Of a DNA stretch of 64,000 nucleotides, positions 36,039 to 51,884 are shown one piece after another (the first letter of the stretch is position 1; each line of letters begins with the position of its first letter). A model generated the notes under the pieces. That model had not been told where the DNA came from. It saw nothing but the letters and a program-made list of their open reading frames with translations, and did no database searches. Both the position numbers and the translations under genes were made by a program. The DNA comes from Eledone cirrhosa (taxonomy: Eukaryota): NCBI GenBank assembly GCA_964016885.1, contig OZ024745.1, positions 98,580,001-98,644,000 of the forward strand, read 5' to 3'.

Positions 36039-36112
36039 TATATACATATATATACATATACATATATATACATATACATATATATATACATATACATATA
36101 TATACATATATA

Positions 36113-39100
36113 TCATCATCATCATCATCAACGTTTAACGTCCGTGTTCCACGCTTGCATGGGTTTGGACGGGGGTATTTCCCACTTGAGGCAAGAGTGC
36201 TTGTCTTGCTCGCATAGGACTGTCTGGCGGGTTTTCTACAGCTGGATGCCCTTCCTAACACCAACTACATTTACAGTGTGAGGCTGGGAGGTTTTTACCG
36301 TGTTGCCTACACGGCCACATTACAGCGTGGACTGTGTGTTTTTTTGTCGTGACACCTACACGATCTCATTTGTTTCGGCCTGGATGGCGCGGCACCAACA
36401 TAACTTTACATAGAATGGGGTGGTGTGGATGGGGTGGGGGTGGTGGGACGGGGTGTATTTTGTTAGAGATGCCTACTGGCTGGAGTAGGTTTTACTATAT
36501 ATTTAGGTAAGGCGGGTCTTCTCTGTTACTGAGTACCGCCAAAGGTCTCGGTCCAGTGACATTGTCTTGGAGAGGTGTAAGTGTGTGATGTCGGAGTTTA
36601 TCAGCTCGTCCCAGGTTTTTCTAGGTCTGCCTATTCCGTGACTACCGTCTATCTTTATTGCCCTGCACTTTGTTATACAGCTATCGACTTTCATGCGCAT
36701 CACGTGTCCATACCAACGTAGCCTTCTCTCGAGTAAACAACATCTGATCCCTCTTATCTCTAATTTTTTCCTTAGTTCGTTTATGCTTTGCAGTTCACGT
36801 ATATTACTGTTACACATCCAGCGGAGCATGCAAGCTTCGTTCCTCTCTAGTCTGCGTATATCCTCTGCACACAATGCCCAGGTCTCACTGCCATGCAACA
36901 TTGCTGTTCGTATGCAGGCATCGTACAACCTGCCTTTCATTTTTAGGGAGAACCCTTTAGCAGCTAATAGTGGTATAAGCTCTCTGAACTTTTTCCAACC
37001 AGTTCTGACTCTAGCTACAGTACTTTCAGAGCACCCTCCCCCACTGCTGATTTTATCGCCCAGGTAACGGAAGCTGTCCACTATTTCTATAGAACCCTCT
37101 GCGCAATTGAAAGAGCTAGTATTTTGTGGGCACTTGCTGCTACTTATTGCTCCAGAACACCGGCCACATGTAAAATCTATGTTCTTAGTTAGCTTACCTG
37201 TGATCCCACTACATCTTTTATGCACCCATACTTTGCATTTAGGACATAAAATGGAGTTTCTACCTACGCCTTTCCTACACACCGAGCACGACCATTTCCC
37301 AGAAGGGACCGCCGCCTTGTTTTCTTTCCTACAAACTAGAACTTTGGTCTTAGCCAGGTTAATTTTAAGTCCTTTTGACTCTAGGCCGTGCTTCCATGTT
37401 TGGAATTTCTTCTCTAGCTCGGCCATTGATTCAGCTATGAGTGTTAGGTCATCTGCGTATAGGAGTTCCCATGGGCAACCGGTCTTGAACTCCTCTGTTA
37501 TAGCCTGAAGGGCAATAATAAATAGTAGGGGGCTGAGAACAGAGCCCTGATGGACGCCAACTTTTACGCTAAACTCTTCACTATATTCGTTGTTAATTCT
37601 AACCTTGCTGACTGTTTCTTTATACATGGCTTGTATAGCCCTCACAAGCCATTCGTCAACGCCTAGTTTTCTAAGAGCCCACCAGATAATGGAGCGGGGG
37701 ACTCTGTCGAAGGCTTTCTCCAAGTCGACAAAAGCTAAGTAGAGGGGTTTACCTTTAGCTAGGAACTTCTCCTGTAGTTGTCGTACTATGAAAAGAGCGT
37801 CTGTGGTACTTTTGCCTGACACAAACCCGAACTGCATTTCATCTAGGTCAATTCTCTCTCTGATTAGTTGCGCTATTACTTTTTCCGTGACCTTCATGAC
37901 CTGGTCGATTAATTTAATGCCTCTATAGTTACTCCTATCTAGGGCGTCTCCTTTACCTTTATAACAGTTAACGATGATGCTGCTATGCCAGTCCTTCGGA
38001 ACAACCCCATTCTGTACGACTTGGTTAACTATGCGAGTGACCATGGTGTGTCCCACCGTGCCAGATGCCTTCAGCATCTCAGCAACTATTTCCGAAGGCC
38101 CAGCCGCCTTACCCGTCTTCATATCCTTGATTGCCTTACTTATTATACTCCCCTCGACTAACACTGCTGGTCCCTCTATTGGGTCGATATGGGGGAGACT
38201 GTCTTTCTCCCATTTATTCTCCTCATTTAGTAGCCTTTCATAGTGACACTTCCAAGCTACCTTCTTATCAGTGTCGGTGATGGCAAGAATGCCATTATCG
38301 TTAAGTACACACTTCTCCCCGACAATATCACGGTTTTCCTTGACGCATTGCCTAGCAATCCTGAACACCTCACGTTTTTGGTCATCGCGTTGTAGAACAT
38401 GCTTGAACTTTCTTTCCTCAGCTTCCCTTCTTGCTAAGTACACTTCTCTCCTAGCTTCCCTCCTGGCCACTTGATAGTCTACTCTACTTCCCCCATCCCG
38501 CCATACTTTCCAAGCCTGCTTTTTGGCCTTAATTGACCCCTCCACCTCACTGTGCCACCACCGTGTTACTCTCCTCCTGCCTACAGGCCTGCTCCAGCCA
38601 CAGACTTCGTCTGTCGCCAACAGCAGGTTTGCTTTCAGAAATTCTCACTGTCCCTCTATATTGTCCGACTCTAAATGTTCTTCCTTACTGTGGAAAGCAT
38701 CAAGTAATATGTTTTGAAATTTATTTTTGGCTGTGGGGTCCATATTTTTCTCCTGAGGATAGTCCTCTTCTGCTGTCGAGTACGTCTCGTCCTGACTATG
38801 AGGTCGCTAATTATCAGTCTATGTTGGGAGGTGCATTCTTCATGGGGGAGGGATTTAGTGTTTACAACAGACACTCTGTCACGTCTTCTGGTAAGGATAT
38901 AATCTACCTGGCTTGTGTGTTCCCCGGATCTATAGGTGATCAGGTGATTGTCACGTTTTTTGAAGTTAGTGTTACAGATAGTTAGGTTATTTGCATCACA
39001 GAATTCCAGGATTCTGGAGCCTTCCTCATTTCTAGTACCAAACCCATAGCCTCCATGGATTTCGTCGTAGCCGTCACAATGTTGTCCAACGTGACCATTT

Positions 39101-39641
39101 AGGTCGCCTGCAATAATTATATAGTCACTGTCAGATATTTGGGAGGTAGTTAGCAACAGTGTCTCATAGAATCTGTCTTTTATAGTGCCGGGCAGTCCGG
39201 ATTGGGGTGCGTACGCAGATATTACTGTCACCGTAGTTCTATTGAGGACAAGTCATATTTTAATTATTCTGTCGTTCACTCTATTTACGTCTATTATCTT
39301 ATCTGCCCACTTTTCTGCTACCATGATTCCTACTCCACCCAGCCCATCGTCGTTTCCCACCCAGAAAAGCTTATAACATCGTTTTTTACCCTCAATGAAT
39401 CTAGCAGACCCACCCCTCCACCTGGTCTCTTGAATACAACAAACATCGACCTCCTTACGTTCAAGCATTTCTACAACCTCGTTAGCGCGACCCTTTAGGG
39501 TGCCTACATTTATGGTACCAACTCTGAAGTTTTGGATTGCGTTTGGAGGGTGGGGGTGGTGGGGGCGGGGGGAGATGGGGTTATGTTAGCCATCCGCGGG
39601 CGAAACAAAGAGGAGTGCTCGCATTCTCGTCCATGAGGTGA
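36113..39641 (-). mobile_element. Near full-length RTE LINE (family A), frameshifted in the endonuclease/linker
   Basis: ORF pieces 39253-39468 (CIQETRW), 38671-39231 (GDLNGH, DYIL, SQH), 36503-38620 (705 aa RT + PHD); 3' UTR, (GAT)n tail. Confidence 0.97.
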
Positions 39642-50600: not shown

Positions 50601-51822
50601 CATTCATTTCATTCATTCATTCATCATCATTTTACGTCCACTTTTCCCTGCTTGCAAGGGTGGGACGGGTCTTATTCAGCACAGCATCTCTCCACTCGTC
50701 ACGGTCCCTCGTCATCTCCACCGTGAGCTTCAATGATCTGAAGTCTGTTCTTACCACCTCCGCCCATGTTTTTCGTGGTCTACCTCTACCACGTCTTCCT
50801 TCAACTGGCAATTCCTGGCACTTCTTCACCCATCGGTCATCCTCCATGCGCATCACATGTCCATACCACCTCAGTCTCCTCTCCCGTACACTACATTCTA
50901 TCCCTCTCAGACACAGTTTCTCTCTCAACACATTTATGCTGGGTCGTTCACGCACATTTACACTGCACATCCAACGGAGCATGCTTGCCTCATTTCTCTC
51001 CAGCCGTCGCATATCCTCTGCAGTTGCTGCCCATGTCTCACTACCATGCAGCATCGCGCTCCTCACACAGGCATCATACAACCGGCCTTTCGTACGCAGG
51101 AAGAAACCCTTTTTCGTCAACAGAGGAAGCAGCTCCCTAAACTTCTTCCAACCCGTCCTTATTCTAGATACTATGGACTCGGAACACCCTCCTCCCATGC
51201 TAATCTGATCTCCTAGGTACCGGAAGCTATCCACCACTTCTATAGCGCTGTCTATCAATGCGACTTCTACTGTCTAATTTCCCTGTACATCTACTGCATA
51301 CATATTTCTCCCTACCTGTTAGTTTGCCTGCTATCCCGCTACATCTCTTGTGTACCCAGGATCTGCATTGTGTGCATTTTATAGAATTTATGCCAGTTCC
51401 TTTTCTGAATATCGAACATGGCCATTTCCCTGACGGAATCAGGGTTTTGTCCTCTTTTCTACTCATCAACACTTTTGTCTTAGCTAGATTCACTCTCAGT
51501 CCTCTTGCTTCCAACTGCTGTTTCCATAGCCAGAATTTATTCTCTAGCTCCTCTACTGATTCTGCTATAAGAACCAGATCGTTAGCATAGAGAAGTTCCC
51601 ATGGACAGCCAGTCTTAAACTCCTCTGTTATGGCTTGGAGGACTATAATGAACAGGACCGAACCCTGATGTACTCCTACTTGTATCTGGAATTCCTCACT
51701 AAACTCCATTCCTACCCTGACTTTACTGAGAGTACCTCTGCACAAAGTTTGCACTGTCCTCACAAGCCATTCCTCAACACCTAGCTTCCTTAGGGACCAC
51801 CAGATGACAGATCAGGGTACCC
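50601..51822 (-). mobile_element. 5'-truncated RTE LINE (family C)
   Basis: GVHQGSV, LLYAND, PHD-type finger, [19 protein letters not shown] runs into terminal hairpin; tail (GAT)n then (AATG)n; both ends in TA-rich arrays. Confidence 0.95.
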
Positions 51823-51884
51823 TATATATATATATACATACATATATATATACAAACATATACATAAACACACACACACTGTAT

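What the first reader, a model, noticed from the sequence alone, without database searches (positions are those of the whole stretch)
36040..51860. RTE LINEs stacked in (TA)n microsatellites: apparent microsatellite-targeted retrotransposon system
Seen: four RTE copies from three families (36113, 39642, 41232, 50601) all on minus, plus 8299-9978; almost every 3' tail and 5' truncation junction falls directly in a (TA)n or (TA)nCA tract (8281/9979, 36040, 40548, 40885/44935, 45494/51823), one pair is head-to-tail, and the partner SINE enters the same tract from the opposite side at 36038. Some short old copies (25900, 56470) are not in TA tracts. Inference: the APE endonuclease, GAT-tail/target annealing, or the PHD finger directs insertion to TA repeats, a safe-haven strategy that builds clusters.
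Basis: partly seen in the sequence, partly recalled or inferred. Interest (0 to 1): 0.75.

Follow-up and report, generated by a model that had tools for sequence, protein, structure and literature searches.

The report
TA-repeat-seeking RTE LINEs
Several related jumping genes sit stacked in TA repeats here because, across this animal's whole genome, over half of the sampled young copies lie at a TA repeat, likely because their cutting enzyme prefers a T^A step just downstream of alternating TA; it is a strong preference, not a strict target.

Summary
Confirmed and genome-wide. In the window, 8 of 10 junctions of the five named LINE copies touch (TA)n; the other two are one head-to-tail joint. 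Elsewhere, 84 of 146 young copies have (TA)4 within 20 bp of the (GAT)n tail, against 6.8% background. A whole-genome exact count for one tail class gives 508 of 1,612. A MITE and a TAA-tailed SINE show no enrichment, and CA and GA repeats are not favoured. The arrays predate insertion: target duplications are only 4-10 bp, and both flanks share the same interruption type in 14 of 18 cases. TA lies upstream-only more often than downstream-only (24 vs 7). This fits endonuclease preference plus 2-4 nt tail priming, a variant of the published RTE 'Tn-TA' signature with (TA)n in place of Tn. About 40% of young copies lie outside TA. The all-minus orientation is chance, and nothing supports a PHD role or a safe-haven strategy. 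The empty-allele test was inconclusive. This scan already noted the same preference on other DNA of this genome.

The parts
35696..36037 (+). tRNA-head-like SINE sharing the C-family 3' tail, (GAT)n tail running into the TA tract
   Evidence: 94% to copy at 17125; head type read from recalled A/B-box look
36036..36113 (.). (TA)n with CA interruptions, between SINE tail and A tail
36112..39641 (-). RTE-type LINE family A, 5'-truncated near the ORF start, ORF broken in pieces
   Evidence: 17,361 exact 3'-end matches for A/A'
39642..40546 (-). A' subfamily 3' fragment, tail joined directly to the 5' end of A through an AT microhomology
   Evidence: 99.2% to other copies
40547..40695 (.). (TA)nCA tract at the A' 5' junction
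40696..40885 (.). 190-bp piece of another repeat; present as an inverted pair next to an RT-like ORF in L104 (Penelope-like reading from recalled motifs, no Pfam hit)
40886..41231 (.). (TA)nCA array at the B 3' tail
41232..44934 (-). RTE-type LINE family B, youngest, 5'-truncated in the UTR
   Evidence: 10,002 exact 3'-end matches; 492 inner-UTR matches
41535..44657 (-). Single 1040-aa ORF: APE endonuclease, RT, PHD finger (aa 778-821)
44935..45248 (.). (TA)nCA array at the B 5' junction
45249..45493 (.). 245-bp piece of another repeat, 93% to a TA-abutting copy in L119
45494..50599 (.). 5.1-kb (TA)nCA array with a short TG-type segment near 45693-45982
50600..51822 (-). RTE-type LINE family C fragment with (GAT)/(GAAT) tail and an internal deletion
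   Evidence: 2,356 exact matches of the tail shared with the SINE
51823..51852 (.). TA tract at the C 5' junction
8298..9978 (-). Older A-like LINE fragment (D) with TA on both sides

Best explanation
These are high-copy, GAT-tailed, single-ORF LINEs whose young copies lie at (TA)n tracts over half the time, likely because their APE endonuclease prefers to nick at a T^A (Y^A) step with alternating TA just upstream, after which the RNA tail likely primes reverse transcription through 2-4 matching bases. A second nick about 5 bp away would give the short duplications seen. TA arrays offer such a site at every second base and survive on both sides of each insert, so successive families pile into the same array; the window is one such pile. 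Shown: enrichment, TA specificity, pre-existence of the tracts, short duplications, upstream bias. Inferred: that the endonuclease is the cause.
For: 84 of 146 young A/A'/B 3' ends have (TA)4 within 20 bp, against 6.8% background. The rate falls to 34% at 80 bp, 20% at 400 bp and 7-13% at 800-1200 bp. Near-full-length B copies spread over C1 and C2: 40 of 76. Whole genome, tail GGT(GAT)5: 508 of 1,612 are followed at once by 8 alternating bases and 12 by AGA; background is 11.8% after AT and 1.0% after GAT. Controls on 30-bp flanks (background 9.5%): TTAA MITE 1 of 14 and 0 of 15, TAA-tailed SINE 4 of 66 and 4 of 44; non-RTE (GAT)3 on 20 bp 1 of 21. CA/TG 3 of 146 and GA/TC 0 of 146. The same interruption type on both flanks in 14 of 18 against 5.0 shuffled. 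A duplication of 4 nt or more in 38 of 69 non-TA copies (shuffle 19%), 4-10 nt, median 5, starting with A in 25 and at T^A in 17 of 38. TA upstream only 24 vs downstream only 7, p=0.003. Alternating TA in -13..-1 in 16 of 38 against 4%. Endonuclease residues N35, E62, Y134, D170 and N172 align to L1. 41 of 60 near-full-length B copies have an intact ORF.
Against: 62 of 146 young copies lack (TA)4 in the first 20 bp, and 45 of 121 junction pairs have it on neither side. 31 of 69 non-TA copies show no duplication, and about a fifth of calls are expected by chance. The SINE, presumably moved by the same proteins, is only 12 of 41 in TA. A plain T^AT preference already yields 28%, so the extra effect is only about two-fold over that null. 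Unrelated repeats also abut TA tracts, which suits a property of the DNA. No biochemical test and no empty allele were obtained.
Confidence: 0.68

Rival explanations
1. TA arrays are fragile or form hairpins and cruciforms, so nicks or breaks made there by host enzymes are captured by any retroelement.
For: Enrichment in long interrupted arrays is 57 of 146 against 2.3%. Other repeat families also end at TA tracts. 31 of 69 non-TA copies lack a duplication.
Against: Fold enrichment peaks at 10-19 bp perfect runs (14x) and falls to 5.7x at 40+ bp (run measured downstream only, 5 cases in the top class). The co-resident TAA-tailed SINE is not enriched. The upstream bias and regular 5-bp duplications suit the element's own enzyme.
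Confidence: 0.13
2. Insertion is near random and copies accumulate in TA arrays because they are tolerated there (safe haven or low recombination).
For: Passive accumulation has been proposed for Drosophila Waldo-A/B near CA repeats (PMC3812793, passage). A regional excess persists at 400 bp (20%).
Against: Copies closest to the window references are the most enriched: 71 of 128 at 97% or more against 9 of 32 under 85% (identity is only a proxy for age, and the 85-92% bin is 17 of 33). CA and GA arrays are not favoured. Control elements are not enriched. Selection would have to remove most of over 10,000 copies in a 3-Gb genome.
Confidence: 0.08
3. The TA tracts were born or grew after insertion, from the tail or the target duplication.
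For: RTE tails are cited as a source of microsatellites (reference title seen in PMC9115989). Some later growth of arrays is likely.
Against: The tail is GAT, not TA. TA lies upstream of the duplication, outside the insert. The duplication is about 5 bp. The two flanks share array-specific interruptions.
Confidence: 0.05
4. The PHD finger steers the protein to TA repeats or to their chromatin.
For: Families A, B and C all carry the motif.
Against: The motif is in 118 of the 120 best homologs, from many unrelated samples. The one PHD-bearing metagenome relative with a visible GAT tail (L248) is not followed by TA (n=1). PHD fingers mostly read histone tails (recalled), which would not give base-level phasing.
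Confidence: 0.06

Closest known systems
RTE-clade LINEs and SINEs with the Tn-TA insertion signature (plant RTE/Au SINE, Bov-B/Sauria SINE; PMC6007223 results part 1 of 2 and discussion read; PMC13295347 results and discussion read)
   Same: Single APE-RT ORF, microsatellite tail, duplication starting at A after T, first base matching the tail repeat, and a recognition element upstream of the cut.
   Different: The upstream element is alternating TA, not a T run (TTT at -13..-7 in 6 of 38 against 10.5% background). Over half of young copies land in (TA)n, whereas those elements are described as dispersed. The ORF has an internal PHD finger. The residue before the catalytic His is Gln, reported there only for plant RTEs.
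Microsatellite-targeting non-LTR elements: Waldo (ACAY), Mino (AC), Kibi (TC), Koshi (TTC), Dong (TAA) (PMC3812793, passages)
   Same: Insertion into pre-existing microsatellites, thought to be endonuclease-driven.
   Different: Those are described as sequence-specific and belong to other clades (R1, Tx1, R4; clades recalled). No RTE and no TA-targeting LINE is in that list. About 40% of copies here are off-target.
TA-microsatellite DNA transposons: Micron (passage) and MuTAnT (PMC4486113, search listing only)
   Same: Same target repeat.
   Different: Transposase-driven plant DNA elements, not retrotransposons.
Octopus RTE-2_OV (PMC9115989, passages)
   Same: Single-ORF RTE LINE, recently active in an octopus genome.
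   Different: 1109 aa with a C2H2 finger; no target preference in the passages seen. Sequence not compared.

Membership tests
RTE-clade LINE | Single ORF of about 1000-1100 aa with APE endonuclease then RT | tested here: met
   1040 aa, Exo_endo_phos plus RVT_1; no other long ORF listed in the window copy. The longer UTR held by other copies was not scanned for ORFs.
RTE-clade LINE | Short 3' UTR ending in a short tandem repeat | tested here: met
   (GAT)n tails
RTE-clade LINE | RT phylogeny groups with named RTE references | not tested
   No named RTE references came; clade name rests on architecture and recalled motifs
Tn-TA signature | Duplication starts at T^A, first base tied to the tail repeat | tested here: met
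   A first in 25 of 38, T^A in 17 of 38; about a fifth of calls may be chance
Tn-TA signature | T run about 10 nt upstream of the duplication | tested here: not met
   6 of 38 against 10.5%; alternating TA instead, 16 of 38 against 4%
Sequence-specific microsatellite-targeting LINEs (Waldo/Mino/Kibi/Koshi/Dong type) | Insertion into pre-existing copies of one microsatellite | tested here: met
Sequence-specific microsatellite-targeting LINEs (Waldo/Mino/Kibi/Koshi/Dong type) | Nearly all copies at the target | tested here: not met
   84 of 146; 45 of 121 pairs with no TA on either side
Sequence-specific microsatellite-targeting LINEs (Waldo/Mino/Kibi/Koshi/Dong type) | Endonuclease cuts the repeat specifically | not testable with these tools
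   needs an in vitro assay

The most novel reading that the evidence does not exclude
A PHD-bearing RTE lineage has evolved an endonuclease that reads alternating (TA)n upstream of the cut, making it the first RTE-clade microsatellite-targeting LINE and a natural intermediate between dispersed and site-specific retrotransposons; each insertion leaves fresh landing pads on both sides.
Probability: 0.3. Interest if true: 0.6.

Novelty: new variant of a known kind. Interest (0 to 1): 0.4.

Why it matters
RTE elements are treated as dispersed inserters, including RTE-1 used for gene writing, which is listed as 'random' (PMC13708176, passages). An apparently active family with over 10,000 copies, a 58% TA bias and an upstream recognition geometry would test directly how the upstream motif of RTE endonucleases sets target choice. 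It also explains LINE piles inside TA arrays in this genome. The idea itself is not new: microsatellite-targeting LINEs and the Tn-TA signature are published, and this window is one ordinary pile among many.

Tried and rejected
A DNA search of the own genome returned nothing because common words are skipped, so exact patterns were used. A single genome-wide count over all tail lengths was not obtained; the whole-genome figure covers one tail class only. The first 5'-end pattern matched only 2 places, and the first 5' junction calls (1 of 80 in TA) were wrong because the UTR runs on for more than 1 kb; they were redone. Empty alleles: contigs from three runs laid on L175 were swamped by other copies, and the 3' flank proved to be a high-copy repeat; both were inconclusive. 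The metagenome scan gave 15 relatives, 2 with the PHD motif; none of the visible 3' ends is followed by TA, but these are distant elements in other hosts and too few to judge. Strand bias towards CA- or TG-type arrays was rejected: 39 vs 28, p=0.22. For the A/A' head-to-tail joint, a template jump fits the AT microhomology and the missing duplication. A later insertion at the tract edge fits the different ages, 98.1% vs 99.2%. This is unresolved. Literature: ten searches showed no paper on TA-targeting RTEs in their listings. The library lacks most subscription journals and Repbase reports, and no supplements were read, so prior description is not excluded.

Full report
Setting. The window lies on contig C5 of a 3.0-Gb genome.

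What is in the window. From left to right the cluster is: SINE (+, 35696), TA tract, LINE A (-, 36112-39641), LINE A' (-, 39642-40546), TA, a 190-bp piece of another repeat, TA, LINE B (-, 41232-44934), TA, a 245-bp piece of another repeat, 5.1 kb of (TA)nCA, LINE C (-, 50600-51822), TA. An older A-like copy D sits at 8298-9978 between TA tracts. B holds an intact 1040-aa ORF with APE endonuclease, RT and a PHD finger. Its N-terminal catalytic residues align with human L1. Eight of ten LINE junctions touch TA. Further copies at 17125, 25893, 33340, 52841 and 56463 have no TA after the tail. The window copies are about 100% (B), 99% (A'), 98% (A), 96% (SINE), 93-97% (C) and 92% (D) identical to their nearest sampled relatives, so the pile built up in steps.

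Copy numbers. Exact 3'-end patterns give 10,002 B, 17,361 A/A' and 2,356 C/SINE matches, evenly split by strand. 492 places hold B's inner 5' UTR, and 41 of 60 such copies fetched have an intact ORF.

Is the TA link more than chance? Background came from 38 hand-spread 10-kb regions (40 asked, 2 out of range): 6.8% of 20-bp windows hold (TA)4, and one region at 53% inflates this. First samples: B 20 of 30, A 17 of 30, C/SINE pattern 7 of 30; the A and B samples were the first matches on C1, not random. Near-full-length B copies across C1 and C2: 40 of 76 with a 3' end found, out of 80. Twenty further B regions gave 10 of 24 3' ends. Pooled young A/A'/B (95% or more): 84 of 146, decaying with distance from the tail. 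All 264 3' ends by family: B 70/130, A 22/37, A' 8/16, C 8/20, D 5/20, SINE 12/41. In the background regions alone, where most copies are old, the figure is 14 of 49. Whole genome, for tails of exactly GGT(GAT)5 followed by a non-G: 508 of 1,612 (31.5%) continue with eight alternating bases and 12 with AGA, against 11.8% and 2.3% after any AT. Controls were not enriched: a TTAA MITE 1/14 and 0/15, a TAA-tailed SINE 4/66 and 4/44 against 9.5%, and non-RTE (GAT)3 1/21. CA/TG (3/146) and GA/TC (0/146) were not favoured.

Which came first? Of 148 junction pairs, 27 were dropped because the 5' flank was itself RTE or SINE sequence. The near-full-length junctions came from 28 hand-accepted of 42 called among 90 copies; the rest lay outside the fetched DNA, were mis-called or lacked a 3' end. 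The 12 AGA-selected loci were excluded. Of the 121 kept, 45 have TA on both sides, 24 upstream only, 7 downstream only and 45 on neither (p=0.003 for the asymmetry). Where the 3' flank is not TA, 38 of 69 show a duplication of 4-10 nt (median 5), against 19% in shuffled pairs, and the TA run lies upstream of that duplication. Where both flanks are arrays with a classifiable interruption (18 of 25), the type matches in 14 against 5.0 expected. The tracts therefore predate the insertions, though they may have grown since. Direct empty alleles were not obtained.

Mechanism. The duplications start with A in 25 of 38 and at T^A in 17. The first bases (AT, GAT, TG) overlap the tail repeat, which suggests priming by a few base pairs. 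Annealing cannot be the whole cause: positions after AT have TA in only 16% of cases and after TAT in 28%, against 58% observed. Alternating TA in the 13 bases upstream is ten-fold enriched even at sites with no TA downstream (16/38 vs 4%), while a T run is not (6/38 vs 10.5%). Enrichment by perfect run length is 3.7x, 14x, 11x and 5.7x for 6-9, 10-19, 20-39 and 40+ bp, which suits a short-range readout more than long cruciforms. The likely chain, inferred, is: bind upstream alternating TA, nick at T^A, prime on 2-4 bases, second nick about 5 bp on. The residue before the presumed catalytic His is Gln (SQH; placed by motif, since the HMMER alignment stops at aa 173), as in 53 of 54 homologs with a scorable endonuclease. 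PMC6007223 reports this change only for plant RTEs and suggests it affects specificity. The PHD motif is in 118 of 120 homologs, and nothing ties it to TA.

Orientation and tandem pair. Neighbours across TA tracts are randomly oriented (25 same, 15 tail-tail, 8 head-head). A is truncated at a point where its own sequence reads AT, and the A' tail joins there with no TA and no duplication. A template jump or a later edge insertion both remain possible. Similar direct joints occur at L138 and L204.

Comparison. It works like the Tn-TA RTEs (PMC6007223, PMC13295347) but fails the T-run feature. It resembles Waldo, Mino, Kibi, Koshi and Dong (PMC3812793) but fails near-exclusivity. RTE membership rests on architecture; no tree was built. 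Ten paper searches showed no report of a TA-targeting RTE in their listings. Earlier notes of this scan reached the same reading on other DNA of this genome; my numbers are independent tests.

Verdict. The feature is real, a new variant of known RTE target choice, and this locus is an ordinary example of it. Interest 0.4.

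Noticed in passing
L131-L160 upstream of the B ORF: The B 5' UTR is built of tandem monomers of about 400 bp with internal repeats of about 98 bp, variable in number and running more than 1 kb; reminiscent of mouse L1 promoter monomers (recalled).
   Followed up: partly
window 43869-43866 region (B ORF aa 262-264): Endonuclease motif SQH instead of SDH, shared by 53 of 54 scorable homologs; published as specific to plant RTEs.
   Followed up: partly
window 40696-40885; L104:3772-4161: The spacer is 98.9% identical to an inverted pair beside an RT-like ORF with GIY-YIG-like motifs (recalled); both L104 copies abut TA. 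Possibly a second, Penelope-like, TA-seeking family.
   Followed up: partly
L006, L046, L114, L175 3' flanks: Other recurrent repeat ends begin right after TA tracts, so TA arrays collect several families.
   Followed up: no
window 21856-25656: 55-bp satellite, about 70 copies, 92% matches.
   Followed up: no
window 27137-32351: Decayed RT-bearing element with a duplicated C-terminal segment (27140-27604 and 31878-32342, 88%); a different LINE type.
   Followed up: no
window 45693-45982: Short TG-type segment inside the CA-type 5-kb array, suggesting a local inversion.
   Followed up: no
window 39742-39973: 112-bp tandem duplication in the A' 3' UTR; a similar internal junction is seen in L044 and L062.
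   Followed up: no
L046, L079, L085, L086: Very short (34-38 bp) 5'-truncated insertions consisting of little more than the 3' end and tail.
   Followed up: no
G000:C1:40005351-40025959 and C1:143.2-143.7 Mb: Regularly spaced same-strand B or C tail matches (about 1.9 kb and about 50-100 kb apart), likely tandem or segmental duplications.
   Followed up: no
window 58263-58670: Mariner-like transposase fragment (weak DDE_3 match).
   Followed up: no
runs X1-X3 on L175: A run labelled as a different organism (X1) holds the B family at 90-99% identity.
   Followed up: no
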